Shown here: positions 12,823 to 58,000 of the stretch, one piece after another | How positions within the stretch are numbered: position 1 is the stretch's first letter | How the letters are laid out: each line of letters starts with the position of its first letter | NCBI GenBank assembly: GCA_000002445.1 | Contig: CP000070.1 | Span: 1,408,001 to 1,472,000, forward strand | Source: Trypanosoma brucei | Lineage: Eukaryota | Reading direction: 5' to 3' | Length of the DNA stretch: 64,000 nucleotides | The notes under the pieces: generated by a model | Told to the model about the DNA's origin: nothing | Databases searched by the model: none | Seen by the model: the letters and a program-made list of their open reading frames with translations, nothing else | Position numbers and translations under genes: made by a program

Positions 12823-13628
12823 ATGCAAAGGAAGCAAAGAAGAAAATAGGATGGGTGGATGTGAGAAAAGAAAAAAAGGAAAAAGAAATGGAAGCGTCAA
12901 GGGTTTAGAGTGTTTACGCTTTCTTCTATGTTTTTGTATGTGTGGGAAAGGGGGGGGAATAAGTAACAGAGGTGAAGAAACATACGCTACTGGTGCAATT
13001 TTTTTTTCTTTTTGTACACCAAAAAGAGGCGATAGCAGGAAGTACAGGGAAGAAAAGGGGGAAAAAGGCGAGACAAAACAAGATACCAAAGGAGAGATTG
13101 AACTAATGGAAAGGGAGAGAAAAGATGTTTATCCCCCCCACCCCAATTCGTTCATTTGATTGTTTCTTTTTATGTGTGCGCGTGTGTGTAAATATATATA
13201 TATATATATATTACAGGGGGCGGTAGGAGGGAAAGAAAAAGGCAAAACAAATGCAAAAGAAAAAGGGAATTAAAGGATTTGGGAGAAAAAGGAATAGGAG
13301 TAATAAAGAATAAAAGAAGTGGGAGCAAGTACAAAACAAAGCAAAGCAAAACACAAAAACAAAACAGGTGTAAAGGATAAAGCAAACAAACAACCAAATA
13401 AAAGACAATAAGTGACATGCAAGCGATGCGGTACAAATCAAATATGTGGGGGGTCCGCTGAATGGCTCTGTGGCTAACACGTTTGAGGAGCGGGCGGAAA
13501 TATTAACGGCAGGAGTAATTTTTTTAAAAAAAATGATTCGTATGTAAGTGAAAAAGTTATGAGAAGTAAACTGACAAATGTTTTTTGTCTGTGTTTTAAC
13601 GTTGTTGTGTACATTCATGTAAAGCGAA

Positions 13629-13675
13629 TATATATATATATATATGTGTGTGTGTGAGAGAGAGAGAGAGAGAGT
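13629..13675. repeat. compound microsatellite (AT)n(TG)n(AG)n
   Basis: atatatatatatatatgtgtgtgtgtgagagagagagagagag. Confidence 0.9.
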
Positions 13676-15043: not shown

Positions 15044-15115
15044 AGAACTGAACTGAAATGAAATGAACTGAAATGAAATGAACTGAACTGAAATGAAATG
15101 AACTGAAATGAAAAA
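15044..15115. repeat. pentamer array (GAACT/GAAAT)n, about 14 units
   Basis: agaactgaactgaaatgaaatgaactgaaatgaaatgaactgaactgaaatgaaatgaactgaaatgaaa. Confidence 0.85.
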
Positions 15116-31280: not shown

Positions 31281-32261
31281 AGCCACCGTTCCTTTTGATT
31301 CCTTTTATTATATTATATTTCGTTTTGTTTTTGTTTTTCACATCAGTGCCTTTGCTTACTATCTTCGGTATTTTCCTCTCAGCTCCGCCTCTTTTTTTCT
31401 TTTTTTCCTTTTTTTCCCCGTTTCTGTTTCTGTTTCGGCTCTTTCTTTTATGTTTAAAAAAAAAAAGACCATTTGCTCTTAATAATGACAATTGTTGTTA
31501 TTATTTGTCTTTATTTCCGTTGTATCGCCTTTTGTATTCCTGTGTTTATGACAACCGAAACCGTTTCAGCGGAAGGGTGAGATAAAAAAAAAGGGAGGGG
31601 AAATATGCGGGATCCCTCAATAGAAAACAGAAAAAAGGAAAGGAAAGGAAAGGAAGCAGATAAGAATGTGGAAGATTAAGGAAGGAGGGGGGGGAGATAT
31701 AATGGAGGTGTGGGGGAACAAATGGAAGGGTTTTCTTTACTTTTAAAAAACAAAAGAAAAGAAAACAAAAAAAGATGGAAAAGGGACAAAAAAAGAAAAA
31801 AAGAAATACTGCTCGAGAGGAAGAGGAGAAGAACTAACACACACACACACACACACATACATATATACATACATACATATATATATATATATAGATTACA
31901 CGGAAAAAAAAAGAAGAAAGGAGCGGCATATTTGGTTTTTATCAATCAGTTGCCGTGTGCTGTGGATTAATAAGCGGGTGCGATCGCGTGTGTCGGAAAA
32001 AAAATGACAATGCATTAGTCCTTCCGTTGCAATATATAAATATGTATATATGTATATATGTATATGTGTATATTTATGTATATATATACATATTTATTTG
32101 GATGTTTTACATATTTGTATGTTCCGCTTATATAAATAAATATATATATATACACATATTTAATTATTTTATTTTATTGTTTGTTCATTGACTTACCTGC
32201 GCGCACATGTCCCCGAGTGTCCGTTTGCCTGTCTCCATTTACATGTGTACTTTTATGTGTT

Positions 32262-32263
<2 letters not shown>

Positions 32264-32304
<41 letters not shown>

Positions 32305-32344
32305 TTGTGTGTATGTGTATGTGTATGTGTGTGTGTGTGTGTAT
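32264..32344. repeat. compound microsatellite (AT)n then (TGTGTA)n(TG)n
   Basis: atatatatatatatatatatatatatatatatgtatatttgtgtgtatgtgtatgtgtatgtgtgtgtgtgtgtgt. Confidence 0.9.
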
Positions 32345-37895: not shown

Positions 37896-37917
37896 TCTGC
37901 ACTTGATTTCTTTTCAG
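37896..37917 (+). promoter_or_regulatory. candidate trans-splice acceptor (polypyrimidine tract + AG) 14 nt upstream of ATG 37932
   Basis: ctgcacttgatttcttttcag|gtgaggaagagcggATG. A larger polypyrimidine tract at 37670-37750 is an alternative. Confidence 0.3.
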
Positions 37918-37931
37918 GTGAGGAAGAGCGG

Positions 37932-42155: not shown

Positions 42156-42533
42156 AAAATACTATCCTTCAAGTTGCCTCATTTCTTTTTATTTTTCAAC
42201 ACTTTAATGGTTTTTTGTCGTTTTTTTTTCCAACTTGAACTACCTGTACTACCGTTGCATTTTTTTTTATGAAGTTGGGGTGTTCTCTGCCTTTTTTGTG
42301 GAGATGCAGCCATACTTTGTTACCACTAACGAGTGTGGTAGCTATCTTTTTCGGCTACAGTCGTCACGGATAAGGATGCCTTGCGTGCATTGTGCCGCCA
42401 TCCCTCCATGTATGTCTTCTTGATGATACTCGTTTACTTCTTTCTTTGACCTTTCCCACTGTTTATTTTTGCTGACGTGTACGAAAGAGGCACTGTGACA
42501 CTCCAGTTGCAATTAAGTAATAACACCTGAGGT

Positions 42534-44195
42534 ATGTATACAACAACAGACCTCATACAGACGCGGGTCGCTCCAGCACACTTGTTTGTTATTGTCTACT
42601 TTCTACAGTGGTTGTTTGTGGCGAGTACCGCATCTGGCGAGAGTGTTCATGCGATCTTCAAAATATCGAAATCTGGAGATGCACCCTTCTTCAAACAAGC
42701 TGAGAGGCACTGCGAGCGCGCTAAAATGCGTCTTGCGACGCCGACGACGGCAAAGGGGGCGACTGCTGTGAAGAAGTTGCTGAAACGCTGCGGTCCATCT
42801 GATGTACCCGTACTTGGCGGTGGCCTAAGCGTGCGATGCAGCAGTAACTCTTTTTTCTTCTTGTGGTCACCGAAACTGGATGAACCCAAGTACCCTGTTG
42901 AGGACACAGCACCATACTGCGGGGAACGCGATCCGCGAGGGTGGGGGACCAAGTGTGTGACAAGGAACAGGAGTGCGGGGAGGTTATTTTACCAATTTCA
43001 TACATCTGAGGGCGAGAAAGGGAACTGTACCGGACCTGTGACAATGGACTATGACCCGGCGATTCTCTATGAATTGGAGGTCCCTAGTGCTGGTGAGGAG
43101 GGTCTCCTCGCATGGGTTGTCTCGCGTGGTGGCAAGAACGGAAGCACTGCTGCGCTTAGGAGCCTTCGATCAGACTTGGAGGACACATCCCGCGCATACA
43201 TTGGAGATTCGAGCAAAATGATCGAGTACGTCCTGTGTGAGGGTGGAAGGTCCTCCGTCGTGTCTTCCACATCATGCTATTCCGTTTCTTATGCTTCTGT
43301 GCCAAATGTTGGCGGTTCAAGTCGAACGGGTGTTCATTGGTTGGTGATTGTCTTCCTCTCCTTCATCGGATTGATTGTGTTATGTGTAGTAACCCTGTCT
43401 ATTGTCGGTGGAGTTACGAAAAAAGTAACCGCAGGGAATGTTGATCGGGGAGACAACACTGGTAGTGGACGGCGACGAACCTCTTTGTCTCACAGCAGCT
43501 GGCATGTAATGAGCCAACCAGGAGGCAGCAGCGGGATTCAATATTCTCGTCGTGGTAGCCAGCCGGGTAACATCCTTTCTCCGCTTCAAGATGCTGCGAG
43601 CATTAACATGCAACGCTATGAAAGCGATGGGGTAGCCGCTGTACCTCGGCAAGGAAGCTTTAACGGCAGAAACACACAACAGCGAAGTAGTTTACCAACA
43701 AACGTAAATCAAGCGCAACAAAATTACAACACAAACAGAGTTACGTCACAAGTAAGCAATTATAGCGCAAGCTTACATCGTCTCGGGAGCTTCCGTGGCC
43801 CCATCATCCATCGTCAAGGAAGCTTCAACAACATTACCTCCGTACCAGCAGGGAATACCTATACTGGGGGTTTATCGCGTCCTGGGAGCTTCCGTGGCTC
43901 AAGCCCCAACCATCAAGGAAGTTTTAACCGTAGTGATATATTTCGCGATCCTAGTCTCTATGGTGAATCTCCTCCTCACGGTGATCCACGCTTGGGTTTA
44001 AACCCTCTTCGGGACATTGGCTACGACAGGGGAAATGCCCCAGAGCAGGTGAGCCTTTCTTCGGTCGGTATGGCCCAACAGGGCAACTTTGCAAACGTTG
44101 GTGCACGTGGCGGGAGCTTCCGAGGAATAAACCGCAACCAACAAGGAAGTTTCCGCAACTCGAACCCGCCGTCTGGTGGTTTGTTTAACACGTAG
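42534..44195 (+). CDS. predicted type I membrane protein (signal peptide, ectodomain, single TM, GSF-motif cytoplasmic tail), 553 aa; paralog A1 of the duplicated cassette
   Basis: ATG start. N-terminal signal-peptide-like h-region HLFVIVYFLQWLFVASTASG. Single TM VHWLVIVFLSFIGLIVLCVVTLSIVGGV. The tail carries reiterated (R/Q)GSF(R/N) motifs (RQGSFNGR, LGSFRGP, RQGSFNNI, RPGSFRGS, HQGSFNRS, GGSFRGI, QQGSFRNS). The first about 250 aa and last about 105 aa are near-identical to 49113..50735. Confidence 0.6.
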   Translation: MYTTTDLIQTRVAPAHLFVIVYFLQWLFVASTASGESVHAIFKISKSGDAPFFKQAERHCERAKMRLATPTTAKGATAVKKLLKRCGPSDVPVLGGGLSVRCSSNSFFFLWSPKLDEPKYPVEDTAPYCGERDPRGWGTKCVTRNRSAGRLFYQFHTSEGEKGNCTGPVTMDYDPAILYELEVPSAGEEGLLAWVVSRGGKNGSTAALRSLRSDLEDTSRAYIGDSSKMIEYVLCEGGRSSVVSSTSCYSVSYASVPNVGGSSRTGVHWLVIVFLSFIGLIVLCVVTLSIVGGVTKKVTAGNVDRGDNTGSGRRRTSLSHSSWHVMSQPGGSSGIQYSRRGSQPGNILSPLQDAASINMQRYESDGVAAVPRQGSFNGRNTQQRSSLPTNVNQAQQNYNTNRVTSQVSNYSASLHRLGSFRGPIIHRQGSFNNITSVPAGNTYTGGLSRPGSFRGSSPNHQGSFNRSDIFRDPSLYGESPPHGDPRLGLNPLRDIGYDRGNAPEQVSLSSVGMAQQGNFANVGARGGSFRGINRNQQGSFRNSNPPSGGLFNT

Positions 44196-45365
44196 GGAGT
44201 TCGCGCCATCTTTTGGCTTCACCCAATGGGAGTAGTTTGGTGTTGCTTGCTGACGTGCCTTTGACCAATGCGGAGATGAGTACATCCGCATATCGAACCA
44301 ATTAGTTACTACAGCGTCTGTGTTAGGTCATTGCCTTACATCCTTCGCTACTTCACTGTATCATCGGATTGAGTATTTTACCACTGTTACTCCCCTCTAC
44401 ATATATTCGCGTTTATACCCTTACCCTACGGTTTTGTCAAATATATATATATATACATGTGTGTGCGTGTGAAGTTTCCCCCACTTTGTTTTGAGTGCAT
44501 TCGCTACGACATGCGTGACAGTGACGCTATTTGGACCACTTCGTTGCGTACGTATCGTAGGCTGCACAGCGAGCACCTTCGCATCGCCTCATTGTTTACG
44601 ATGTGGTCACGCTCCACCCTCTCTTTTTCACTGCGACATGGTTGAACTATGAGTTTGGAGTTGACCCTCCATAGTACTGTCGTGTATTTCGTGTTATTCT
44701 TTTTTTTTTCTCTGTTGTCTCCGCTTGTGCCTTGCTTATGCTTCTATTTTCTTTGTGCCTTCTATTTCCCCGTTTCCGTCAGTGGCTCTACAGTCTGAGT
44801 GAGTGCGGTGGTGAAATGCGGTGTATTGCGCAATGCGCGTGTCAACTGCTTCCTTTCCTTTTGTTTGATATTATTTCCCTCATCATTTTCTTTTCAGACG
44901 TTTTATTATTTTCTGTTATTATTATTATTATTTATTTTTTATTCTTTGCTCATTCATTACCGAGGGTACCGTAATAGATATGATGTGGTATTGGCTTACT
45001 GCTACACCTTTTCTTACTATCCCGCAACCTTGTTCTAGTCCTTTGGAGGGGGTAAGTCACTCCAGAGATTACGATGGGATAAAATGAGTCGGCCGATTGT
45101 TTATATGTTACTCGGGGTGCGCAATGCTGAACGTTTTGTTGTGTGTACAGAGGATTCTTTGCCTTCTTTACTCTTTACCATGTTCTTTCAATTATTTTCT
45201 TACTTCTCCCATAATAGTAAGGTGTGATTATACTCAAGTGGATATCCGTGTGTGACGTGTGCTGGTGCCAATAGGCGTGCTAAACACACGAGTCTCCCTC
45301 TTCAGTGATAAACTCGATTTAACATTTATTTGTAATTCTTACCACTGACCATTCATCTTCATGCG

Positions 45366-48086
45366 ATGTCTGCCTCTCGATCTCCCTCTGGCAGTGGGAG
45401 TTTGTATCCCGCTGGCACCATGTCAACGGGATGTTCCCTGCCTTCATTGACGTGTCCCCCGAAACTTGGTGTGGGCAAGGTTGAGGGCAGTAGCGACACT
45501 GTTTCCATGGAGCGCTCGCAAGCTGGCAGCCAGTGGGCCGGCGGGACACATGCTGAAGAAGTGTGGGCATGCAAAAATGCTGCTTACACCAGGGCAATGA
45601 AATATTCCAAAGGATTGGTTGCGGACGTGGTGGATAGTTCGGTAGAATTCCTGCCACGCCGTCTCATGAGGAGTTCTGTGAACCACAGTATAAAGGACAG
45701 GAAATCGTCTTTCAGTGTCATGGCTGATGTTGGGCGCGACACGCAACAGCAATCTTTGGCTGCCACAAGCTGCAAAGGTACTTCATCCACTCCCATGAGT
45801 GAAGCCACATTCCCATTCCTTGACGGTGGGAAGGTACAACCAACGGATCCAGGGCACCTAAAAGCTGGAATTACGTACGATCCGCAGTCGTATGGATCGC
45901 TTTTACCCACGACGCTGAAGGTACGATCCGTTGAGGAAGCTGTGAGTGGCCCTCTAATGGGGGTTGCGGCTAACGAAATGTTTGCAAACCGAGATGCTAA
46001 ACAGATGTTGAGGGGTATTCTCCAGCCGGTACAGAAGACTTCGCAATTTTCACAGTACTTTGATCGACAACAGTTTGAGGGTAAAATGAGGCAGTTGGAG
46101 GAAAGCGCGCGACACTTCAGCAAATGTCTTGCTCAGCGTGTGTCTTCCAGTACCGGTGGTGGTGGTGTGATGATTGTCGTAAACGATTCTGATGATGGGA
46201 GCTCCGACGACGGTGGTTTGATGGGTGACGGTGTGAGACGCAGAGCTCGAAAGCCCGCCAAAATGGTAGACGAAGCGCGAGTAGCTGGCGACGCTGAATC
46301 TAATGCCCGGAAACAGCGACTTAACGCACTTCGTTGCACTCCACAGAATCTTTGTAGCTCGGTGGCGTTGCGTGATGCGTTGAAGAAAAGCAGGATTACG
46401 GTGAAGAAAGCACGATGCAGTGCTGTTAATGTAGCAAGACACAGCTCTGATCTACTGGAGCTTCTGCGGAGGAGAGGATCGAGGAGCACTGGTCCCCAGG
46501 AAGCGATGGTTGTTTTGCCCAACGAAGAGGTTTCATGGGACACGGGATCTGTTTCACCGAATAAGTGTACCCAAGCCTCATTTGCGTCGATACCGGATTC
46601 TGCATGTGGTAATGAGGGTCACCGCACCAAGGTTGTTACAGACCAGCGCGCTGTAACAATGCTGGAGTCGTTTTTGCGCAGCGGCAAGGGATTGACGACT
46701 CATGGTATTTTACCTGCAACACTGTATGGCAATCACTGTGGCCCCAATGGCGGCCAGTTGATCCCTGCACCAGAATCTTCGCGGTTACCATCAATGCTAG
46801 ATACTGCTTTCAGTGATGTTTTCTCCACTGGTGCATTATCACCAAGTGGGCAGCAGCTAGCGGCATCAGCAGAGTGCTTGCAACAGCAGAGGAAAAGTGT
46901 CCACCGTACGAAACCAGCCCGCCGTGTGATTCCTGTTGGTTACGGGATGAGTGCTCGTGCCCGTCAAAACTACGAGGCGATGGTGGAGAACTGGGAGGTG
47001 AGTGAGATCGAGCAAGAGCTTCGGAACGGGGAAGCATTATGCCACGCCCGCCGTCGGCTGCTGAAGCTCGTGTCTGAGCGCAAACGGTTGTTAAACGCGT
47101 CGCTCGCGCACTTCCACCATAACCCGCAGCAAGCCGTGTCGCTGCAGCGGCGTGAGATATTCCGGATGGTTGTCGAGGTTGATGCCGAGGACCGTAAGCA
47201 GGCGTGTTTTTCATTTGTTGATTTGCTTGAACAGTGCTGCCGGAACACTCTGGATGATGCCGCATGGTCTGTTGTTTCCGGCGCCTTGAAGTCTAGCCGC
47301 GATCTTATCCAACTCTCTCCACTACGGTGCAACCCGCAGAATTTCATTTCCATTCTGAACGACTGTCTGTCATTGCAGCATATCCGGGATCAGCGCGTTC
47401 AAGATGCTCTACAGTGGTTAGCAAAACTCTTTGGTGTATCGCAAGGGCAATTCAAGTCTGCACTACAATCATTGCACCACAACCTCAACAAGCCACGCGA
47501 TTACGAGGCACGGTTCCATGAAATTGACAGCCGCGTGTGTGGGATAGCAGCGTCCACTGAGAGACGTGTTCGTATTAAACTGCGCCGTTGCAACTTTCAG
47601 CTTCCCCGTCCTGTGGGTGCTGGCAACCAAATGAACCCCCTTGTCACCAGCAATGGTGATGGCGCTGTGGGCTGTGTGTTGGGTCCCAACACCTGTGTTG
47701 ATCGTCCTGAAGTATCGCTCGTTTTTCAGCTGGGAAATGAAACTGCCGTCTCCTCAACACTCAGCGCTCATCGTAGCGGTACCGGAGGGAGTGGTGATGT
47801 GGTGTGTGAGATGGTTGATGACGCCCCGTGCTATGTGGTTGACTTCAATGACGAAATTGTGCAGCTGAAGACTGTGGACACCAGTGTGGTACGCGTCTCT
47901 CTTTACTGCAACGGCAACGTTCTTTGCAGTGGCTTCTTGCACCTGTCCAAGTGTACTTTCCACAGTAATCGTACCTTATCTGTCATTCTTCGTCTCGACA
48001 ACAAAAGAATATTTGTGGCTGATCTGAGGATCAATGTGGAGCTTGTGTATGGAAGGGACCGCCGGGGGCGGGGTGGGAGAAGGTAG
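45366..48086 (+). CDS. hypothetical Ser-rich soluble protein, 906 aa; paralog B1 of the duplicated cassette
   Basis: ATG start, 2721 nt ORF. Differs from 51902..54622 in only 4 residues (P/S, N/S, T/P, Y/S). An acidic DSDDGSSDDGG segment is present. No recognisable domain. Confidence 0.6.
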   Translation: MSASRSPSGSGSLYPAGTMSTGCSLPSLTCPPKLGVGKVEGSSDTVSMERSQAGSQWAGGTHAEEVWACKNAAYTRAMKYSKGLVADVVDSSVEFLPRRLMRSSVNHSIKDRKSSFSVMADVGRDTQQQSLAATSCKGTSSTPMSEATFPFLDGGKVQPTDPGHLKAGITYDPQSYGSLLPTTLKVRSVEEAVSGPLMGVAANEMFANRDAKQMLRGILQPVQKTSQFSQYFDRQQFEGKMRQLEESARHFSKCLAQRVSSSTGGGGVMIVVNDSDDGSSDDGGLMGDGVRRRARKPAKMVDEARVAGDAESNARKQRLNALRCTPQNLCSSVALRDALKKSRITVKKARCSAVNVARHSSDLLELLRRRGSRSTGPQEAMVVLPNEEVSWDTGSVSPNKCTQASFASIPDSACGNEGHRTKVVTDQRAVTMLESFLRSGKGLTTHGILPATLYGNHCGPNGGQLIPAPESSRLPSMLDTAFSDVFSTGALSPSGQQLAASAECLQQQRKSVHRTKPARRVIPVGYGMSARARQNYEAMVENWEVSEIEQELRNGEALCHARRRLLKLVSERKRLLNASLAHFHHNPQQAVSLQRREIFRMVVEVDAEDRKQACFSFVDLLEQCCRNTLDDAAWSVVSGALKSSRDLIQLSPLRCNPQNFISILNDCLSLQHIRDQRVQDALQWLAKLFGVSQGQFKSALQSLHHNLNKPRDYEARFHEIDSRVCGIAASTERRVRIKLRRCNFQLPRPVGAGNQMNPLVTSNGDGAVGCVLGPNTCVDRPEVSLVFQLGNETAVSSTLSAHRSGTGGSGDVVCEMVDDAPCYVVDFNDEIVQLKTVDTSVVRVSLYCNGNVLCSGFLHLSKCTFHSNRTLSVILRLDNKRIFVADLRINVELVYGRDRRGRGGRR

Positions 48087-49112
48087 GAACGGCTCGTGAG
48101 TCTGTGTGGCCTTTGCTCACATAAATGGTCACGGGATTAACGTTCGAATGTATGTGTATCTTTGTGCATATGTGCACTGTGCGTTTGCTGTAACATGAAA
48201 CTGTCCTGGATATGATAATGTTTCTTCACGCTTGTGTTTTATTGGTTTGCGTAAACGGGAACCGTCACATGAGCAATGTTAGCCTTTCTTTTTTTCCTTT
48301 ACTTGCTGTACATGTTATGGATGAGAGCCTTGTTTGTTCTGCTCTTTATCCTTCCCTCTCTCATACACACACTTTCACCGTTTCTTTTCCATTATTTTAT
48401 AACTGATTGATGGTCATTAGAGGTCGAGTGTGCTTCACTGCTGGGGTAGCGGTAAGGGGCGCGCAAAAACCCACACGTTTGTGTGGTGTCATTGAGGCTG
48501 GTAATGGAAGGTCGTTTACTCTCCAGTATTTTTCGGAATTACGATTTGTATTTTTATCATAGTGAGTAATTTGTTTTTTTCTAGACTTCATGCACACCTT
48601 TTAGATTTTCTGTTGCTGTTTTAAAGAACGATGTATTATTTTTGTCGTTTTGTTACTGCTGCTCCCATTTTTTATCTATTCGTCCCTTATTATGGTGTGA
48701 GCTCTTTTAACTTTACTGCCGTTATGGCACTGTGGCTGAGGCAATCTTTTAAAACTTTAGATTAATTTTTTTTTAAAATCACTTTTATGGTTTTTTGTCG
48801 TTTTTTTTTCCAACTGAACTACCTGTACTACCGTTGCATTTTTTTTTATGAAGTTGGGGTGTTCTCTGCCTTTTTTGTGGAGATGCAGCCATACTTTGTT
48901 ACCACTAACGAGTGTGGTAGCTATCTTTTTCGGCTACAGTCGTCACGGATAAGGATGCCTTGCGTGCATTGTGCCGCCATCCCTCCATGTATGTCTTCTT
49001 GATGATACTCGTTTACTTCTTTCTTTGACCTTTCCCACTGTTTATTTTTGCTGACGTGTACGAAAGAGGCACTGTGACACTCCAGTTGCAATTAAGTAAT
49101 AACACCTGAGGT

Positions 49113-50735
49113 ATGTATACAACAACAGACCTCATACAGACGCGGGTCGCTCCAGCACACTTGTTTGTTATTGTCTACTTTCTACAGTGGTTGTTTGTGG
49201 CGAGTACCGCATCTGGCGAGAGTGTTCATGCGATCTTCAAAATATCGAAATCTGGAGATGCACCCTTCTTCAAACAAGCTGAGAGGCACTGCGAGCGCGC
49301 TAAAATGCGTCTTGCGACGCCGACGACGGCAAAGGGGGCGACTGCTGTGAAGAAGTTGCTGAAACGCTGCGGTCCATCTGATGTACCCGTACTTGGCGGT
49401 GGCCTAAGCGTGCGATGCAGCAGTAACTCTTTTTTCTTCTTGTGGTCACCGAAACTGGATGAACCCAAGTACCCTGTTGAGGACACAGCACCATACTGCG
49501 GGGAACGCGATCCGCGAGGGTGGGGGACCAAGTGTGTGACAAGGAACAGGAGTGCGGGGAGGTTATTTTACCAATTTCATACATCTGAGGGCGAGAAAGG
49601 GAACTGTACCGGACCTGTGACAATGGACTATGACCCGGCGATTCTCTATGAATTGGAGGTCCCTAGTGCTGGTGAGGAGGGTCTCCTCGCATGGGTTGTC
49701 TCGCGTGGTGGCAAGAACGGAAGCACTGCTGCGCTTAGGAGCCTTCGATCAGACTTGGAGGACACATCCCGCGCATACATTGGAGATTCGAGCAAAATGA
49801 TCGAGTACGTCCTGTGTGAGGGTGGAAGGTCCTCCGTCGTGTCTTCCACATCATGCTATTCCGTTCCTTTTATCCTATCAGTTGCAAGTAGCGATGACAA
49901 GTCGCATTTTGATCATCGGCACAACGTCACTATTGGTATATTGGTTTTAATTGTTTTAATTTTAATTATTGTAGCCGCTTTCTTAATTTTGTGGCTCCTT
50001 TCACGGAACCGTCCGGCAGGTGATGTTGAGGAAAACCGGCGCAACGGATCAGATGTACAGAGAACTGTCGTTGAGTCGGTTGGTGATTTAGGTGGAACTG
50101 TTAGATCCGAAAGCTACTCGGGGCGAGGTAGCAAGTCGGGTGACAATCTTTGTCGTCCGGAAAATGTAAACGGTAATTGTCCCCAGGTGAATAATGGATT
50201 CTGTGTTAACGGATCCCCCCAACAAGAAAATTTGCAAATGAATGCCCCTGGACAACAACCAAATTTTAACTACCACAGCACAACACCCGAAATACAAACA
50301 TACAGTGGCGAAATGGAACTACGGACTAACTTTGGTGGTCCTATCTTGTACCGCCAAGGAAGCTTCAGACAAAATATAACCTCCGACGTCAATCCAACAC
50401 CGCTAAGCGCCACACAGCGTCCTGGGAGCTTCCGTGGCTCAAGCCCCAACCATCAGGGTTGTTTCAACCGTAGTGATGTATTTCGTGAGCCTAGTCTCTA
50501 TGGTGAATCTCCTCCTCACGGTGATCCACGCTTGGGTTTAAACCATCCTCGGGACATTGGCTACGACAGGGGAAATGCCCCGGAGCAGGTGAGCCTTTCT
50601 TCGGTCGGTATGGCCCAACAGGGCAACTTTGCAAACGTTGGTGCACGTGGCGGGAACTTCCGAGGAATAAACCGCAACCAACAAGGAAGTTTCCGCAACT
50701 CGAACCCGCCGTCTGGTGGTTTGTTTAACACGTAG
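49113..50735 (+). CDS. predicted type I membrane protein, 540 aa; paralog A2 (mosaic relative of 42534..44195)
   Basis: Identical signal peptide and ectodomain through ...SSTSCYSV, then a different module (49865-50417) with its own TM TIGILVLIVLILIIVAAFLILWLL. The tail reconverges at RPGSFRGSSPNHQG(C)FNRSD..GGNFRGINRNQQGSFRNSNPPSGGLFNT. Confidence 0.6.
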   Translation: MYTTTDLIQTRVAPAHLFVIVYFLQWLFVASTASGESVHAIFKISKSGDAPFFKQAERHCERAKMRLATPTTAKGATAVKKLLKRCGPSDVPVLGGGLSVRCSSNSFFFLWSPKLDEPKYPVEDTAPYCGERDPRGWGTKCVTRNRSAGRLFYQFHTSEGEKGNCTGPVTMDYDPAILYELEVPSAGEEGLLAWVVSRGGKNGSTAALRSLRSDLEDTSRAYIGDSSKMIEYVLCEGGRSSVVSSTSCYSVPFILSVASSDDKSHFDHRHNVTIGILVLIVLILIIVAAFLILWLLSRNRPAGDVEENRRNGSDVQRTVVESVGDLGGTVRSESYSGRGSKSGDNLCRPENVNGNCPQVNNGFCVNGSPQQENLQMNAPGQQPNFNYHSTTPEIQTYSGEMELRTNFGGPILYRQGSFRQNITSDVNPTPLSATQRPGSFRGSSPNHQGCFNRSDVFREPSLYGESPPHGDPRLGLNHPRDIGYDRGNAPEQVSLSSVGMAQQGNFANVGARGGNFRGINRNQQGSFRNSNPPSGGLFNT

Positions 50736-51901
50736 GGAGTTCGCGCCATCTTTTGGCTTCACCCAATGGGAGTAGTTTGGTGTTGCTTGCTGACGTGCCT
50801 TTGACCAATGCGGAGATGAGTACATCCGCATATCGAACCAATTAGTTACTACAGCGTCTGTGTTAGGTCATTGCCTTACATCCTTCGCTACTTCACTGTA
50901 TCATCGGATTGAGTATTTTACCACTGTTACCCCCCTCTACATATATTCGCGTTTATACCCTTACCCTACGGTTTTGTCAAATATATATACATACATATGT
51001 GTGCGTGTGAAGTTTCCCCCACTTTGTTTTGAGTGCATTCGCTACGACATGCGTGACAGTGGCGCTATTTGGACCACTTCGTTGCGTACGTATCGTAGGC
51101 TGCACAGCGAGCACCTTCGCATCGCCTCATTGTTTACGATGTGGTCACGCTCCACCCTCTCTTTTTCACTGCGACATGGTTGAACTATGAGTTTGGAGTT
51201 GACCCTCCATAGTACTGTCGTGTATTTCGTGTTATTCGTTTTTTTTTCTGTTGTCTCCGCTTGTGCCTTGCTTATGCTTCTATTTTCTTTGTGCCTTCTA
51301 TTTCCCCGTTTCCGTCAGTGGCTCTACAGTCTGAGTGAGTGCGGTGGTGAAATGCGGTGTATTGCGCAATGCGCGTGTCAACTGCTTCCTTTCCTTTTGT
51401 TTGATATTATTTCCCTCATCATTTTCTTTTCAGACGTTTTATTATTTTCTGTTATTATTATTATTATTTATTTTTTATTCTTTGCTCATTCATTACCGAG
51501 GGTACCGTAATAGATATGATGTGGTATTGGCTTACTGCTACACCTTTTCTTACTATCCCGCAACCTTGTTCTAGTCCTTTGGAGGGGGTAAGTCACTCCA
51601 GAGATTACGATGGGATAAAATGAGTCGGCCGATTGTTTATATGTTACTCGGGGTGCGCAATGCTGAACGTTTTGTTGTGTGTACAGAGGATTCTTTGCCT
51701 TCTTTACTCTTTACCATGTTCTTTCAATTATTTTCTTACTTCTCCCATAATAGTAAGGTGTGATTATACTCAAGTGGATATCCGTGTGTGACGTGTGCTG
51801 GTGCCAATAGGCGTGCTAAACACACGAGTCTCCCTCTTCAGTGATAAACTCGATTTAACATTTATTTGTAATTCTTACCACTGACCATTCATCTTCATGC
51901 G

Positions 51902-54622
51902 ATGTCTGCCTCTCGATCTCCCTCTGGCAGTGGGAGTTTGTATCCCGCTGGCACCATGTCAACGGGATGTTCCCTGCCTTCATTGACGTGTCCCCCGAAA
52001 CTTGGTGTGGGCAAGGTTGAGGGCAGTAGCGACACTGTTTCCATGGAGCGCTCGCAAGCTGGCAGCCAGTGGGCCGGCGGGACACATGCTGAAGAAGTGT
52101 GGGCATGCAAAAATGCTGCTTACACCAGGGCAATGAAATATTCCAAAGGATTGGTTGCGGACGTGGTGGATAGTTCGGTAGAATTCCTGCCACGCCGTCT
52201 CATGAGGAGTTCTGTGAACCACAGTATAAAGGACAGGAAATCGTCTTTCAGTGTCATGGCTGATGTTGGGCGCGACACGCAACAGCAATCTTTGGCTGCC
52301 ACAAGCTGCAAAGGTACTTCATCCACTCCCATGAGTGAAGCCACATTCCCATTCCTTGACGGTGGGAAGGTACAACCAACGGATCCAGGGCACCTAAAAG
52401 CTGGAATTACGTACGATCCGCAGTCGTATGGATCGCTTTTACCCACGACGCTGAAGGTACGATCCGTTGAGGAAGCTGTGAGTGGCCCTCTAATGGGGGT
52501 TGCGGCTAACGAAATGTTTGCAAACCGAGATGCTAAACAGATGTTGAGGGGTATTCTCCAGCCGGTACAGAAGACTTCGCAATTTTCACAGTACTTTGAT
52601 CGACAACAGTTTGAGGGTAAAATGAGGCAGTTGGAGGAAAGCGCGCGACACTTCAGCAAATGTCTTGCTCAGCGTGTGTCTTCCAGTACCGGTGGTGGTG
52701 GTGTGATGATTGTCGTAAACGATTCTGATGATGGGAGCTCCGACGACGGTGGTTTGATGGGTGACGGTGTGAGACGCAGAGCTCGAAAGCCCGCCAAAAT
52801 GGTAGACGAAGCGCGAGTAGCTGGCGACGCTGAATCTAATGCCCGGAAACAGCGACTTAACGCACTTCGTTGCACTCCACAGAATCTTTGTAGCTCGGTG
52901 GCGTTGCGTGATGCGTTGAAGAAAAGCAGGATTACGGTGAAGAAAGCACGATGCAGTGCTGTTAATGTAGCAAGACACAGCTCTGATCTACTGGAGCTTC
53001 TGCGGAGGAGAGGATCGAGGAGCACTGGTCCCCAGGAAGCGATGGTTGTTTTGCCCAACGAAGAGGTTTCATGGGACACGGGATCTGTTTCACCGAATAA
53101 GTGTACCCAAGCCTCATTTGCGTCGATACCGGATTCTGCATGTGGTAATGAGGGTCACCGCACCAAGGTTGTTACAGACCAGCGCGCTGTAACAATGCTG
53201 GAGTCGTTTTTGCGCAGCGGCAAGGGATTGACGACTCATGGTATTTTACCTGCAACACTGTATGGCAATCACTGTGGCCCCAATGGCGGCCAGTTGATCT
53301 CTGCACCAGAATCTTCGCGGTTACCATCAATGCTAGATACTGCTTTCAGTGATGTTTTCTCCACTGGTGCATTATCACCAAGTGGGCAGCAGCTAGCGGC
53401 ATCAGCAGAGTGCTTGCAACAGCAGAGGAAAAGTGTCCACCGTACGAAACCAGCCCGCCGTGTGATTCCTGTTGGTTACGGGATGAGTGCTCGTGCCCGT
53501 CAAAACTACGAGGCGATGGTGGAGAACTGGGAGGTGAGTGAGATCGAGCAAGAGCTTCGGAACGGGGAAGCATTATGCCACGCCCGCCGTCGGCTGCTGA
53601 AGCTCGTGTCTGAGCGCAAACGGTTGTTAAACGCGTCGCTCGCGCACTTCCACCATAACCCGCAGCAAGCCGTATCGCTGCAGCGGCGTGAGATATTCCG
53701 GATGGTTGTCGAGGTTGATGCCGAGGACCGTAAGCAGGCGTGTTTTTCATTTGTTGATTTGCTTGAACAGTGCTGCCGGAACACTCTGGATGATGCCGCA
53801 TGGTCTGTTGTTTCCGGCGCCTTGAAGTCTAGCCGCGATCTTATCCAACTCTCTCCACTACGGTGCAACCCGCAGAATTTCATTTCCATTCTGAACGACT
53901 GTCTGTCATTGCAGCATATCCGGGATCAGCGCGTTCAAGATGCTCTACAGTGGTTAGCAAAACTCTTTGGTGTATCGCAAGGGCAATTCAAGTCTGCACT
54001 ACAATCATTGCACCACAACCTCAACAAGCCACGCGATTACGAGGCACGGTTCCATGAAATTGACAGCCGCGTGTGTGGGATAGCAGCGTCCACTGAGAGA
54101 CGTGTTCGTATTAAACTGCGCCGTTGCAACTTTCAGCTTCCCCGTCCTGTGGGTGCTGGCAGCCAAATGAACCCCCTTGTCACCAGCAATGGTGATGGCG
54201 CTGTGGGCTGTGTGTTGGGTCCCAACACCTGTGTTGATCGTCCTGAAGTATCGCTCGTTTTTCAGCTGGGAAATGAAACTGCCGTCTCCTCAACACTCAG
54301 CGCTCATCGTAGCGGTACCGGAGGGAGTGGTGATGTGGTGTGTGAGATGGTTGATGACGCCCCGTGCTATGTGGTTGACTTCAATGACGAAATTGTGCAG
54401 CTGAAGCCTGTGGACACCAGTGTGGTACGCGTCTCTCTGTCCTGCAACGGCAACGTTCTTTGCAGTGGCTTCTTGCACCTGTCCAAGTGTACCTTCCACA
54501 GTAATCGTACCTTATCTGTCATTCTTCGTCTCGACAACAAAAGAATATTTGTGGCTGATCTGAGGATCAATGTGGAGCTTGTGTATGGAAGGGACCGCCG
54601 GGGGCGGGGTGGGAGAAGGTAG
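51902..54622 (+). CDS. hypothetical Ser-rich soluble protein, 906 aa; paralog B2
   Basis: Same length and frame as 45366..48086, with 4 aa differences. Confidence 0.6.
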   Translation: MSASRSPSGSGSLYPAGTMSTGCSLPSLTCPPKLGVGKVEGSSDTVSMERSQAGSQWAGGTHAEEVWACKNAAYTRAMKYSKGLVADVVDSSVEFLPRRLMRSSVNHSIKDRKSSFSVMADVGRDTQQQSLAATSCKGTSSTPMSEATFPFLDGGKVQPTDPGHLKAGITYDPQSYGSLLPTTLKVRSVEEAVSGPLMGVAANEMFANRDAKQMLRGILQPVQKTSQFSQYFDRQQFEGKMRQLEESARHFSKCLAQRVSSSTGGGGVMIVVNDSDDGSSDDGGLMGDGVRRRARKPAKMVDEARVAGDAESNARKQRLNALRCTPQNLCSSVALRDALKKSRITVKKARCSAVNVARHSSDLLELLRRRGSRSTGPQEAMVVLPNEEVSWDTGSVSPNKCTQASFASIPDSACGNEGHRTKVVTDQRAVTMLESFLRSGKGLTTHGILPATLYGNHCGPNGGQLISAPESSRLPSMLDTAFSDVFSTGALSPSGQQLAASAECLQQQRKSVHRTKPARRVIPVGYGMSARARQNYEAMVENWEVSEIEQELRNGEALCHARRRLLKLVSERKRLLNASLAHFHHNPQQAVSLQRREIFRMVVEVDAEDRKQACFSFVDLLEQCCRNTLDDAAWSVVSGALKSSRDLIQLSPLRCNPQNFISILNDCLSLQHIRDQRVQDALQWLAKLFGVSQGQFKSALQSLHHNLNKPRDYEARFHEIDSRVCGIAASTERRVRIKLRRCNFQLPRPVGAGSQMNPLVTSNGDGAVGCVLGPNTCVDRPEVSLVFQLGNETAVSSTLSAHRSGTGGSGDVVCEMVDDAPCYVVDFNDEIVQLKPVDTSVVRVSLSCNGNVLCSGFLHLSKCTFHSNRTLSVILRLDNKRIFVADLRINVELVYGRDRRGRGGRR

Positions 54623-55039
54623 GAACGGCTCGTGAGTCTGTGTGGCCTTTGCTCACATAAATGGTCACGGGATTAACGTTCGAATGTATGTGTATCTTTG
54701 TGCATATGTGCACTGTGCGTTTGCTGTAACATGAAACTGTCCTGGATATGATAATGTTTCTTCACGCTTGTGTTTTATTGGTTTGCGTAAACGGGAACCG
54801 TCACATGAGCAATGTTAGCCTTTCTTTTTTTCCTTTACTTGCTGTACATGTTATGGATGAGAGCCTTGTTTGTTCTGCTCTTTATCCTTCCCTCTCTCAT
54901 ACACACACTTTCACCGTTTCTTTTCCATTATTTTATAACTGATTGATGGTCATTAGAGGTCGAGTGTGCTTCACTGCTGAGGTAGCGGTAAGGGGCGCGC
55001 AAAAACCCACACGTTTGTGTGGTGTCATTGAGGCTGGTA

Positions 55040-58000
55040 ATGGAAGGTCGTTTACTCTCCAGTATTTTTCCGTATTCTGTATGTTTTCCTAACAGGTTGT
55101 CATACCGTAGATATCTATGTGGATTACGGTTTATCAAGTTTCTTACGTTTTTTCCTGGCAATACTCGTGCGAATGGTTATTGCGATAATCTTTTTTTGGG
55201 TTTTAACCTTTATTGTCAACGTAACGTTTCTGGAAGGGCATATAACGGGCGCAATATCGATATCCCTAGTCCCCCGGCACCTCTAACTCTGAATTCGTTG
55301 GTATCTTACGTGACGGAATTGCGTTTGTTACACAGATCATGTGGCGTATCGGTGTCAGCTTCTCGCGTTCGATTCCAAGCACGTGAGTTTCTTACTCGTG
55401 GTATTGCGAAAGATCTCTTTTGCTCTGATACCGACAAGGGGAGTACTGCATTGTGCAATGGTGGAATGAATGAGGAGTGCGCCACGGCATTACTTTTGAC
55501 GTGTGGATATTTTGAGTTGTCTATCTTTGAGTGCGGTTGCGGTTATGAATGTGTGGAACTGCTTTCCTCCCTTTGGAGTAGTCGTCTTGTTTCGTCACTT
55601 TCACCTCCATGCAGTTGTGCAGCTGCAGGCGATGCCGGCCGTTTGACTCTTTCAGTTCTTGGTATGCTTACGAGCGGTGGTGTGCGAACTTCTGCGGAAA
55701 ATCGTGATAAATTACTACAGTTTCTGTGTAAAATATTGTTACCTGTTACGTTGCGTCTCGTTCAAGAAGAGTCGCTTTTTGTGACTTTCACTACCGACGC
55801 AGAAAGGGCAATGACCAACGATGGGGGAGCTGCCTTTTCGACATTAATTTCGGCCCTAACTAAAGCTGCTGTGGCGGGGTGGATTTGTGGCGATCGTTCA
55901 TCAGGCAGTGGCAGGGTTGCTTTCGGGGTGCCATCTTTGCCACAGGCGTTCTCCCGGAAGCGAGAGGTCTCGGGCCCATTATTTCACACATTAGCGCAGG
56001 GAGATGCCATCGACTGTAGCCGCCTGGCTTCGGTGATGCAGATGTATGCTGGATGCTTAGTAAACGATCATCTGAAAGGGTCTGCTTCACAAGTATTACG
56101 TTTTTTTACGCTTACACAGTGTGTTCCGCAGTTAGTTGCACTGGCAGACCATTACCAAGAGGGCGATAGGCGCGTAAGTTTGGTTGCGTCGCTTGTGCGG
56201 TCTGTAACTGCTGTCCTCCTGGCGTCTTTGGATGTTAAGGGCACAAACGTCTCCCACCTAGTCGCAAGCATTGCCTGTTCCTACGCGCGTATTTTGACAT
56301 TCCCCTCAGAAGAGAAAGCTGCGACTACCGCAACATCATATGGTATTACGAAAGCGAAGGAGCCACAAAAACCGTCGTGGACACTTTTCAGGGACGTCAC
56401 AATTGGCGTAAGAAATAATATGCTCTACGGAAATGAGGTGCTTTCGCCGGCTGTTGTACTGCTCCATTTGTGTGAACGTGTGACACCCTTTGCACACAAG
56501 TATTTGTTTTCGGATTTGGCAGCATTACTTAATGCCCTGGGAAAGATATATAGAGTGGCGGTAGTGCACTTCAACCGGCGCGCAACCACTTCCAAAAAAA
56601 TTACTGAAAAGGCTCACTGTGATGAAGGTAATTGCGGTTCACGAGAAACTTGGAAAGTATCTAGCAAGACGTTCACTCACTCGCGTTTCGAGCGTCGCGG
56701 ATCTGCCACGTGTGTCCAACAAGCTCATCTTTCCCCCACCCACGGGGCAATGGTTAGTGAAAGCACAGAATCTCCTCAGGTGGGATTGACTTCACCATAT
56801 TCACTCGCTCTTCCCTTTGCTGTTAATGCCGAGGACATCGCCGAGATCGAGGGCGAGTTAGAAGTGCTGCTAACTTCTGTTGTAACTGTAATGGAAAGAC
56901 ACATGCCATCTACTCGGAACGGACGACCAGTTTTTGTGTCGCGGGCAAACTTTACAACGGATGATTCAGTATGTGCTGAAGAGTGTGTGGATATGAGCCG
57001 CAAGGGATGTGCTACCGATGGGCGAAAGCACTACGCGGAGGATACTAGTGGACTACAGTCTGTGCCCACAGCCCGTGCAAAGGAACTTGGTGGCAGAAGC
57101 CGTCTGCTAAAGAAGTCGGTTGCTGGTAAAGAGCTGGTGTTGATTGCCGAAGGTCTCCACACCCTTGGCTGGAGGTCTTTTGTTGCATTTCAGGATCGTT
57201 TACTGATGTCACTCTCGTCACAGTTGGGGCAAGAGGTGCTTAGTGGAAGACAGTACGCGTCTCTTGTTTGTCTTTTGCTTCGTGCACCTCCTGTATTAGC
57301 CTCCGTCGTTTTTCACGCAGTGGAGGATCGGCTTAAGCGACTTATTCATTCAGACGCAGTTACAATCACGGAGGAATTTAACACTGAAGAATCCAAAGAA
57401 AGTCAGGGGGTTTCTCAAGTGGTGGTTGCCCTCCCGCATGCACGTGCCATTCAGGATGAGTCAATTTCTTTGTGCGAGGCGTGTGCCGTTATCTTCGGTT
57501 TCGCGTCAAAAATGGGGAAAAATGCCCTCTCTCTGCTGAATGACCTTTTCATCCGCTGCGGAAATCGTGTGCTTGTGGAAGTACCTTTGTCGAATAGCCG
57601 CCTTGATGAAAATGTTGAGGGCGCCTTAACGATGTTTGTGGCGAGCTCCACATGGGTTCTTGCCAACTCTTTGGCGGGACGGTCAGGGTCGCAGCACTCC
57701 GGCAAGGAAAAATCAGTAATATCCTTCATTAAACGAGCTCGTGATCATGCAGCACATGCCTTATGTGTTTCCTTATTTATGGGAAATACTGTTGGCAACC
57801 CACTATCGCTGATTTCAGTGGAAGCAGTTGCAAATGCCTGTATGATGTTGGAGTGCTGTGGCAGCAGATCCGACAAGAATATAGAACAAATTCATGGTCA
57901 CTTGAAACGTGCGTATGCTTTTTTGGTCTCGCAGTGCGACAGTCGCGAACTTGCGCAACTACTGGAAGGCTTCGTAGGACGCAAACAACTGGTTGGGCCA

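What the first reader, a model, noticed from the sequence alone, without database searches (positions are those of the whole stretch)
43286..43877. Mosaic paralogs: TM-plus-juxtamembrane module swapped between otherwise identical membrane-protein genes
Gene A1 (42534..44195) and gene A2 (49113..50735) are identical for about 750 nt, covering the signal peptide and ectodomain. They then carry completely unrelated sequence for about 550-590 nt (A1 43286-43877, A2 49865-50417), each encoding its own TM helix and proximal tail. They reconverge for the last about 105 codons. The adjacent gene pair is 99.8% identical. Such a sharp block structure implies recombination or gene conversion that imported a cassette, possibly from another family member elsewhere in the genome. 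It gives two receptors with the same extracellular face but different membrane anchors and proximal tails.
Basis: seen in the sequence. Interest (0 to 1): 0.6.

Follow-up and report, generated by a model that had tools for sequence, protein, structure and literature searches.

The report
Tandem lectin-like receptor genes, divergent middle
Two neighbouring Trypanosoma brucei genes encode membrane proteins with the same lectin-like outer domain but different membrane anchors and inner tails, because gene conversion keeps erasing differences everywhere in the duplicated unit except one old block; this pattern is common in trypanosome gene arrays.

Summary
The window is T. brucei TREU927 chromosome 7. 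A1 is inferred to be Tb927.7.5400; A2 is Tb927.7.5420. Both lie in a 6.5-kb two-gene unit repeated in tandem (A1-B1-A2-B2). The units are 99.4% identical except for one block (A1 43287-43876, A2 49866-50416), which has no blastn match and about 40-51% nt identity. Each block encodes a short stalk, a TM helix and the proximal tail.

The blocks are not unrelated. They are colinear, in-frame remote homologues (27-29% aa identity, E 1e-10 to 1e-13).

In the flanks, paralogues are closer (99.7-99.9%) than orthologues (about 99.0%). In the block, orthologues are 98.5% identical and no site groups paralogues. So gene conversion homogenised the flanks after the subspecies split, and the block is an old island that escaped.

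No donor was found: all 7 hits among 1.84 billion representative proteins are orthologues of the same family, and that family is single-copy in the T. cruzi and T. theileri loci I inspected.

This is a new example of a known process.

The parts
42186..48534 (+). Tandem repeat unit 1: upstream region, gene A1, intergenic region, gene B1 and its 3' flank
   Evidence: Self-blastn. It is 99.4% identical to unit 2 outside the block. Pairwise table.
48766..55070 (+). Tandem repeat unit 2: upstream region, gene A2, intergenic region, gene B2 and its 3' flank
   Evidence: Self-blastn. The same A1-B1-A2-B2 order is present in T. b. gambiense DAL972 (L001).
48535..48765 (+). 231-nt unique junction ('filler') between the two units
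   Evidence: It has no similarity to either flank of the duplication. It is also present in the gambiense assembly, whose colinear alignment runs across it. This argues for a real tandem duplication, not two alleles.
42534..44195 (+). Gene A1, 553 aa, inferred to be Tb927.7.5400 (XP_846163.1, Q582F5). Layout: signal peptide, C-type lectin-like ectodomain, TM helix, basic Ser-rich tail
   Evidence: ORF. Exact match to the TREU927 protein. The gene ID is inferred from the orthogroup table in PMC10361982.
49113..50735 (+). Gene A2, 540 aa, Tb927.7.5420 (XP_846165.1, Q582F7)
   Evidence: ORF, exact match. The ID is confirmed by the published phosphosite entry 'Tb927.7.5420 S444 ... Q582F7', whose peptide GSSPNHQGCFNR occurs only in A2.
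42639..43280 (+). Shared ectodomain (aa 36-249), identical in A1 and A2 (A2 copy at 49218-49859), with a C-type lectin-like fold
43287..43876 (+). A1 divergent block: about 18-aa stalk, TM helix (about 43338-43412) and about 150 aa of proximal tail. This is the ancestral-type version
   Evidence: It is closer to the T. congolense orthologue (34.8% aa identity) than to A2 (26.9%). It shares the 'HWLV' motif at the start of the TM helix with T. congolense.
49866..50416 (+). A2 divergent block: stalk, TM helix (about 49926-50000) and proximal tail. This is the derived version
   Evidence: It is 19.6% identical to T. congolense. The tail has lost its basic charge and most GSF motifs. It is 98.5% identical to the gambiense A2 block, and the ORF is intact.
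43877..44116 (+). 3' 'shoulder' of A1 (A2 equivalent 50417-50656). It is shallowly diverged (about 3.4%) and has not been homogenised overall since the brucei/gambiense split
   Evidence: Over the whole 3' part (43877-44195), paralogues are 96.6-97.2% identical and orthologues 98.1%. There are 6 orthologous and 2 concerted sites. It contains S463C and S528N, which each remove the Ser of a GSF motif in A2.
45366..48086 (+). Gene B1, 906 aa, no known domain (inferred Tb927.7.5410), co-duplicated with A
   Evidence: It differs from B2 at 7 of 2721 nt.
51902..54622 (+). Gene B2, 906 aa (inferred Tb927.7.5430)
   Evidence: A small patch of orthologous sites at 47871-47905 / 54407-54441 is shared with gambiense.

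Best explanation
A 6.5-kb unit carrying two genes was duplicated in tandem on T. brucei chromosome 7. Gene A encodes a type-I membrane protein with a C-type lectin-like ectodomain. Gene B encodes a 906-aa protein of unknown function.

Repeated gene conversion between the two direct repeats has since kept almost the whole unit nearly identical. This includes the 5' region, the signal peptide and ectodomain, the distal tail, the 3' UTR and gene B.

One segment of gene A had already diverged too far, or is protected by selection. It covers the stalk, the TM helix and about 150 aa of proximal cytoplasmic tail. Conversion tracts stop at its edges, which gives a razor-sharp 5' boundary and a stepped 3' boundary.

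The A1 block keeps the ancestral character of the family. The A2 block is the fast-evolving, derived copy. The outcome is two expressed isoforms with the same extracellular face but different anchors and tails, probably differing in phosphoregulation and/or sorting.

Shown: the duplication, post-split concerted evolution of the flanks, orthology and intactness of both blocks, remote homology of the blocks, absence of a detectable donor, the fold, and expression plus phosphorylation of A2.

Inferred: in-situ origin of the A2 block, the reason tracts stop there, and any functional difference.
For: **1. Concerted evolution of the flanks.**
- 5' flank plus the 5' part of A: paralogues differ at 1 of 1086 sites (Tbb) and 3 of 1087 (Tbg). 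Orthologues differ at 10-12 of 1087.
- Rest of the unit: paralogues 99.70%, orthologues about 99.0%.
- Site patterns: 9 concerted and 0 orthologous sites between 42200 and 43286, and all concerted from 44257 to 47861.
- At most concerted sites, gambiense and equiperdum share one state while both TREU927 copies carry the other. Conversion is therefore visible within the finished TREU927 sequence itself.

**2. The block is old and retained.**
- It has 242 orthologous and 0 concerted sites, and orthologues are 98.5% identical.
- The boundaries are the same in gambiense.
- Both ORFs are intact, with pN/pS of about 0.39 (A1 block) and 0.18 (A2 block).
- Both blocks are also present in T. equiperdum OVI.

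**3. The blocks are homologous to each other.** E is 1e-10 to 2e-13, and the match is colinear and in frame. A2's best match anywhere is A1.

**4. No donor.** The scan found only 7 relatives among 1.84 billion representative proteins. All are orthologues carrying the same ectodomain.

**5. The ancestral state is a single A-B pair.** The T. cruzi and T. theileri loci have the order RRM gene, 1410-aa gene, A, B, about 1930-aa gene. T. congolense is listed as single-copy in PMC10361982.

**6. Polarity.** In the block, A1-T. congolense is 34.8%, A1-A2 is 26.9% and A2-T. congolense is 19.6%. Tail net charge is +15 for A1, +20 for T. congolense and +1 for A2. GSF motif counts are 7, 5 and 3.

**7. 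A2 is made and phosphorylated.** The A2-specific phosphopeptide with S444 appears in the supplement of PMC6907760.

**8. The process is established for this organism.** 'Sequence mosaics and concerted evolution' in T. brucei tandem arrays are described in PMC1855330 and PMC2854126.
Against: - The gambiense assembly is a whole-genome shotgun draft with an N gap in B1. Repeat consensus effects could inflate the concerted sites on that side.
- Two equiperdum assemblies are collapsed or single-unit. Such repeats are therefore easily mis-assembled.
- The A2 block is more distant from A1 than the T. congolense block is. A post-speciation duplication would then need more than a two-fold rate acceleration. 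Otherwise the duplication predates the split and T. congolense lost or collapsed a copy. The timing is unresolved.
- I could not search the T. brucei genome at the DNA level, including subtelomeres and pseudogenes. A non-coding or unannotated donor is not excluded.
- No experiment yet shows that A1 and A2 behave differently.
Confidence: 0.8

Rival explanations
1. Cassette import. The two genes were recently identical. An ectopic gene conversion or recombination event then pasted a TM-plus-tail segment into one copy from another family member elsewhere in the genome.
For: - Both ends of the block are sharp.
- The block starts 3 codons after the last conserved ectodomain cysteine, which is a domain boundary.
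- T. brucei is well known for segmental conversion in VSG genes (PMC2854126).
- GC3 of both blocks (0.39-0.42) is lower than in the flanking coding parts (0.48-0.55).
Against: - No protein with a matching module exists outside this family among 1.84 billion representatives or in the 5.8-billion-sequence search.
- The family has no other members in T. brucei. It is single-copy in the T. cruzi and T. theileri loci inspected, and is listed as single-copy in T. congolense.
- A2's module is most similar to A1's module, colinear and in frame.
- The mosaic with identical boundaries predates the brucei/gambiense split, while the flanks were converted afterwards. The near-identity of the flanks therefore needs no recent common origin.
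- Low GC3 is shared by both blocks, so it is a property of this part of the gene and not a sign of foreign origin.
Confidence: 0.08
2. Same origin (duplication followed by conversion of the flanks), but the A2 block has no distinct function. It is a relaxed, drifting low-complexity tail, and it escapes conversion only because its divergence blocks heteroduplex formation.
For: - Across the genus the tail is a fast-evolving repeat region. Repeat number differs even between T. vivax copies and strains.
- The module is also the least conserved part between T. brucei and T. congolense (34.8%, against 47.7% for the ectodomain).
- A2 has lost family hallmarks: basic charge, GSF motifs and the W-containing motif at the start of the TM helix.
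- The 3' UTRs are about 99% identical, so no separate expression control is evident.
Against: - The A2 ORF is intact in brucei and gambiense, with 3 nonsynonymous and 5 synonymous changes in the block (pN/pS about 0.18; small numbers).
- An A2-specific phosphopeptide is detected in cells.
- Two of the four old amino-acid differences in the 3' shoulder remove the Ser of GSF motifs specifically, and both persist in both subspecies despite conversion all around them. This looks directional.
Confidence: 0.25
3. Assembly artefact. A1 and A2 are two divergent alleles, or mis-joined reads, of one gene that were wrongly laid out as a tandem pair.
For: - The T. b. equiperdum IVM-t1 assembly shows only one unit, of A1 type.
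- The T. equiperdum OVI scaffold is visibly collapsed at exactly the repeat borders.
Against: - Two independent assemblies (finished TREU927 and gambiense DAL972) show the same A1-B1-A2-B2 order. Both have the same unique 231-nt junction and the same copy-specific differences in the shoulder and in B.
- The OVI scaffold contains both blocks in the expected order.
Confidence: 0.03

Closest known systems
Sequence mosaics and concerted evolution in T. brucei tandem gene arrays (Jackson 2007, PMC1855330; Jackson et al. 2010, PMC2854126)
   Same: Head-to-tail duplicates lie in one polycistron. Gene conversion makes paralogues within a genome more alike than orthologues between subspecies. Discrete breakpoints leave mosaics. 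Cell-surface genes are often involved.
   Different: Those surveys treated arrays with more than 3 copies. This two-unit, two-gene (A-B-A-B) array was not found in their main texts. Here the mosaic is not subspecies-specific. One deeply diverged island is stably retained in both subspecies and coincides with a protein-domain boundary.
Vertebrate paired immune receptors (e.g. KIR, Ly49, NKG2 and CLEC pairs): near-identical ectodomains kept similar by gene conversion, with different TM and cytoplasmic parts
   Same: Neighbouring paralogues share a lectin-like extracellular domain and differ in the TM helix and cytoplasmic tail. Homogenisation of the ectodomain is conversion-driven.
   Different: This is an analogy only, recalled from general knowledge. 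Neither TM helix carries a charged residue, and neither tail has an ITIM or ITAM motif. The topology is type I, whereas NK-cell CTLD receptors are type II. There is no evidence of opposing signalling.
C-type lectin-like domain (CTLD) superfamily
   Different: There is no Pfam Lectin_C match. No EPN/QPD plus WND calcium and sugar-binding motifs are present. Sequence identity to CTLDs is 10-21%. An insertion at model residues 85-111 is poorly predicted. Lectin activity is untested.
The T. vivax copy of the same locus
   Same: The orthologous A-B region is also tandemly duplicated, and the copies are about 99% identical (L004).
   Different: The unit differs: it is about 8 kb and includes a fragment of the downstream gene. 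The two A copies have the same TM helix and differ only in the number of 12-aa tail repeats. There is no diverged island, so this was probably an independent duplication.

Membership tests
Concerted evolution / gene-conversion mosaic in a T. brucei tandem array | Direct tandem repeats on the same strand within one transcription unit | tested here: met
   Units at 42186-48534 and 48766-55070, both on the + strand.
Concerted evolution / gene-conversion mosaic in a T. brucei tandem array | Paralogues within a genome are more similar than orthologues between genomes | tested here: met
   In the flanks, paralogues are 99.7-99.9% identical and orthologues 98.9-99.1%. About 40 concerted sites are seen.
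Concerted evolution / gene-conversion mosaic in a T. brucei tandem array | Segments with a conflicting (orthologous) history, separated by discrete breakpoints | tested here: met
   The block has 242 orthologous and 0 concerted sites. There are also a shoulder at 43877-44116 and a patch at 47871-47905.
Ectopic cassette import (VSG-style segmental conversion) | A donor copy of the imported segment exists elsewhere | tested here: not met
   There are no module-only hits among 1.84 billion representative proteins, and nothing else in the 64-kb window. A DNA-level search of the whole T. brucei genome was not possible with these tools.
C-type lectin-like domain superfamily | CTLD fold | tested here: met
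C-type lectin-like domain superfamily | Sequence-profile match to Lectin_C (Pfam PF00059) | tested here: not met
   No Pfam hit at E <= 0.1. A family-profile search of PDB sequences gave only sub-threshold hits to mosGCTL-6 (E 0.15) and CD93 (E 0.5).
C-type lectin-like domain superfamily | Ca2+/carbohydrate-binding motifs (EPN or QPD, plus WND) | tested here: not met
   A regex scan found none in the T. brucei or T. congolense ectodomains. Only the fold is claimed, not lectin activity.
C-type lectin-like domain superfamily | Conserved disulfide framework | tested here: inconclusive
   Five cysteines (C60, C102, C129, C165, C235) are invariant across the genus. Their pairing in the model was not examined.
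Paired activating/inhibitory receptors | One partner has a cytoplasmic ITIM; the other has a charged TM residue that recruits an ITAM adaptor | tested here: not met
   Neither tail has an ITIM, and neither TM helix has a charged residue. Only the gene architecture is analogous.

The most novel reading that the evidence does not exclude
The island is held by selection. T. brucei would then maintain a true 'paired receptor'. Gene conversion keeps one C-type lectin-like ligand-binding domain identical in two genes. The two TM-plus-tail modules route the same ligand signal differently. A1 is the ancestral, basic, multi-RxxS-F phospho-acceptor form. A2 is a derived, near-neutral form with fewer phosphosites and added Cys and Glu. 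The difference could lie in endocytic sorting or turnover, or in kinase coupling.
Probability: 0.3. Interest if true: 0.55.

Novelty: new member of a known kind. Interest (0 to 1): 0.3.

Why it matters
**For annotation and experiments**
- Tb927.7.5400 and Tb927.7.5420 cannot be told apart by their 5' ends or 5' flanks. I showed that the TrypTag N-terminal targeting arms for Tb927.7.5420 match both copies exactly.
- Their extreme 3' ends and 3' UTRs are about 99% identical, so end-directed reagents would probably also hit both copies.
- Existing localisation, RNAi and RNA-seq data for either gene are therefore probably mixtures. Only reagents aimed at the roughly 590-nt block are isoform-specific.

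**For evolution**
- This is a clean example of an island of divergence inside a converting repeat, dated on both sides. The island is sharp at a domain boundary. A shoulder beside it records an older conversion tract.

**For biology**
- The locus points to an uncharacterised, genus-wide Trypanosoma family of type-I proteins. They combine a lectin-like ectodomain with a repetitive RQGSF tail.
- T. brucei alone, as far as seen here, has split this family into two tail variants.

Tried and rejected
- **Shallow structure prediction.** Predicting the ectodomain from a 2-sequence alignment failed (pLDDT 30). It worked once 9 family members were aligned.
- **Profile search.** The second homologous-protein search, run with the 8-member family profile, returned only the same 3 clusters. 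The low-complexity tail probably saturated the word filter, so it added nothing.
- **Contig look-ups.** The look-up of encoding contigs had no record for the T. congolense protein or for TREU927 A2 itself. I therefore could not inspect the T. congolense locus. Its single-copy status rests on a published orthogroup table.
- **Frameshift origin of the A2 block.** Rejected. tblastx shows the homology in the same frame, and no better out-of-frame match exists.
- **Junction as a relic.** I tested whether the 231-nt junction is a diverged relic of either flank, which would date the duplication. It shows no similarity above shuffled controls.
- **T. equiperdum OVI fragment.** P0007 has an A2 block followed by an A1-like 'HQGSFNRSDIFRDPS'. 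I first read this as a strain-specific conversion tract. I set it aside because that scaffold is collapsed at the repeat, so the sequence may be a mixed consensus.
- **Literature.** Searches for the protein accessions, gene IDs and the RQGSF motif found no functional study.
- **Pfam.** No domain was found for A, B or the 1407-aa upstream gene.
Full report
**Where we are.** The two ORFs match proteins of Trypanosoma brucei brucei TREU927 exactly. A1 is XP_846163.1 (553 aa) and A2 is XP_846165.1 (540 aa), both on the 2.2-Mb chromosome 7 record. A published phosphosite table links Tb927.7.5420 to UniProt Q582F7 through a peptide that occurs only in A2. A published orthogroup table pairs Tb927.7.5400 with .5420 and .5410 with .5430. 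The order along the window is therefore A1 (.5400), B1 (.5410), A2 (.5420), B2 (.5430). All four lie on the + strand of one polycistron.

**Checking the observation.**
- Self-blastn shows a 6.5-kb unit repeated in tandem. Segment 42186-43290 matches 48766-49869, and 43877-48534 matches 50417-55070. Both matches are 99.4% identical, and nothing aligns between them.
- In a gene-to-gene alignment the first 753 nt of the CDS are identical. Identity falls to about 30-50% within one 30-nt window and returns abruptly at 43877/50417.
- Each block encodes a strong hydrophobic helix, with Kyte-Doolittle maxima of 3.14 and 3.64. Both proteins share an N-terminal signal sequence.
- B1 and B2 differ at 7 of 2721 nt.
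The blocks are unalignable as DNA but are not unrelated. As proteins they align colinearly and in frame (27-29% identity, E 1e-10 to 2e-13). A 51-nt patch near the 3' end of the block is still 74.5% identical.

**Which part was converted?** I fetched the same locus from T. b. gambiense DAL972 (L001). It has the same A1-B1-A2-B2 order, the same block boundaries and the same unique 231-nt junction between units. I aligned the four units and classed each variable site.

| Region | Paralogues (within a genome) | Orthologues (between subspecies) | Site patterns |
|---|---|---|---|
| 5' flank + 5' part of A (42200-43286) | 1/1086 (brucei), 3/1087 (gambiense) differences | 10-12 differences | 9 concerted, 0 orthologous |
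| Block (43291-43876) | about 51% identical | 98.5% identical | 242 orthologous, 0 concerted |
| 3' part of A (43877-44195) | 96.6-97.2% | 98.1% | 6 orthologous, 2 concerted |
| Rest of unit (44196-48534) | 99.70% | about 99.0% | all concerted from 44257 to 47861 |

(Sources.)

- At most concerted sites, gambiense and equiperdum share one state and both TREU927 copies carry the other. Conversion is therefore visible within the finished TREU927 sequence itself.
- The 3' part of A is a shoulder that was homogenised before the subspecies split but, on balance, not since.
- The near-identity of the flanks is thus the product of ongoing gene conversion. The block is an old island that conversion does not enter.

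**Was the block imported?**
- A phmmer scan of 1.84 billion representative proteins with full-length A2 gave seven hits. All carry the same ectodomain. They are the orthologues in T. congolense, T. vivax, T. grayi, T. melophagium, T. cruzi and T. theileri. None matches only the module.
- The best match to the A2 module is the A1 module.
- The T. cruzi and T. theileri loci show the ancestral layout with a single A-B pair between the same neighbours. T. congolense is listed as single-copy.
- No other family member is known that could act as donor. Import is not excluded at the DNA level, because I could not search the whole T. brucei genome. Nothing supports it, however.

**Polarity and age.**
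- Within the block, A1 is 34.8% identical to T. congolense, A1 and A2 are 26.9% identical, and A2 is 19.6% identical to T. congolense. The ectodomain is 47.7% identical between the two species.
- A1 and T. congolense share the 'HWLV' start of the TM helix. The more distant species have a related 'LWII' motif. A2 has lost it.
- A2 is therefore the derived, fast copy. Either the duplication followed the brucei/congolense split and A2 evolved more than twice as fast, or the duplication is older and T. congolense lost a copy. This remains open.
- Between brucei and gambiense both blocks are intact, with more synonymous than nonsynonymous change per site (pN/pS 0.39 and 0.18). The counts are small.

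**What the protein is.**
- Pfam finds nothing.
- The canonical calcium and sugar-binding motifs are absent. I claim only the fold.
- Across the genus the cytoplasmic tail is a run of 10-12-aa repeats ending in RQGSF or RQQSF. This is an R-x-x-S-hydrophobic pattern of the kind favoured by basophilic kinases; that last point is my own knowledge and was not tested.
- A1 keeps this character: net charge +15, 38 Ser and 7 GSF motifs. T. congolense has +20, 44 Ser and 5 GSF. A2 has lost it: net charge +1, 25 Ser, 3 GSF, plus 12 Glu and 4 Cys.
- Two of the four old amino-acid differences in the shoulder, S463C and S528N, each remove the serine of a GSF motif in A2. Both persist in both subspecies.
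- A2 is expressed and phosphorylated at S444.
- TrypTag reports a weak endocytic signal for an N-terminal tag on Tb927.7.5420. Both targeting arms match both genes exactly, and the tag sits ahead of the signal peptide. This is only a lead.

**Mechanism, as best supported.**
- A tandem duplication was followed by repeated conversion between the direct repeats.
- Tracts end where homology ends. This sharpens the 5' edge at the ectodomain/stalk boundary and leaves a stepped 3' edge.
- Whether the island persists because divergence blocks heteroduplex formation or because selection favours two tail types cannot be settled here. The directional loss of phospho-acceptor motifs, the intact ORFs and the detected A2 phosphopeptide lean towards some functional difference. 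I put that at roughly 0.3-0.5.

**Comparison with what is known.**
- Mosaics and concerted evolution in T. brucei tandem arrays are well described (PMC1855330, PMC2854126). Those surveys covered arrays with more than three copies, and I found no mention of this pair in their main texts.
- The architecture resembles vertebrate paired receptors. The defining signalling motifs are absent, however.
- T. vivax duplicated the same locus with a different unit and no diverged island.

**Caveats.**
- The gambiense draft has a gap in B1.
- The T. equiperdum OVI scaffold is collapsed exactly at the repeat borders.
- The T. b. equiperdum IVM-t1 assembly shows a single A1-type unit. That is either a real loss or a collapse.
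- All selection estimates rest on fewer than ten substitutions.

**Verdict.** This is a new example of a known process in an uncharacterised gene family. Its practical consequence is that reagents aimed at the gene ends cannot, or probably cannot, separate the two genes. Interest is modest.

Noticed in passing
L004 (T. vivax, GCA_021307395.1) 9483-21425: The orthologous locus in T. vivax is also tandemly duplicated, but with a different unit of about 8 kb: A, B and a 767-aa fragment of the downstream gene. The second A copy (17967-19532) is not annotated. The two A copies are about 99% identical apart from the number of 36-nt (12-aa NPMERQQSFRSG) tail repeats.
   Followed up: partly
window 42455-42613 and 49034-49192: The two 80-nt TrypTag N-terminal targeting arms listed for Tb927.7.5420 match both gene copies exactly. 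The published 'endocytic[weak]' localisation therefore cannot be assigned to A1 or A2. The tag also lies upstream of the signal peptide.
   Followed up: yes
L002 (T. b. equiperdum IVM-t1, CM010678.1) 9662-16001: This assembly has only one unit (A1-type gene plus B) and runs straight into the downstream gene. The A2 unit and the 231-nt junction are missing. This is either a real loss by unequal crossover or a collapsed repeat. In T. equiperdum OVI (L003) the scaffold breaks at an N gap exactly at the repeat border but contains both blocks.
   Followed up: partly
window 47871-47905 (B1) / 54407-54441 (B2): A small patch of three copy-specific differences inside the otherwise homogenised B genes gives T836P and Y847S. 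It is shared by brucei and gambiense, so it is a second, tiny island that conversion has not erased.
   Followed up: partly
window 24329-25212: A 102-nt tandem repeat of 8.7 copies, 98% identical, lies inside the 1147-aa ORF at 24263-27706. It encodes a 34-aa protein repeat. That ORF has no Pfam domain.
   Followed up: no
window about 14000-20000 and 32000-38000: Two long, very AT-rich stretches (GC 25-34%, against about 48% elsewhere) contain no ORF of 200 aa or more apart from one 200-aa ORF at 32207-32809. They share short low-complexity matches with each other. A (TGAAA)n array lies at 15039-15113. These gaps are unusually large for a T. brucei polycistron.
   Followed up: no
literature (bioRxiv 10.64898/2026.06.15.732286): [quoted passage not shown] This conflicts with the gene ID Tb927.7.5420 and with the position seen here. 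In the orthologous T. b. gambiense record, the locus lies at about 1.5 Mb of the 2.2-Mb chromosome 7, flanked by conserved syntenic genes.
   Followed up: partly
window 1810-3798: A 662-aa ORF with a YEATS domain is probably YEA2 (Tb927.7.5310), a putative NuA4-complex subunit named in PMC8559703. The assignment rests on the domain and the chromosome only.
   Followed up: no
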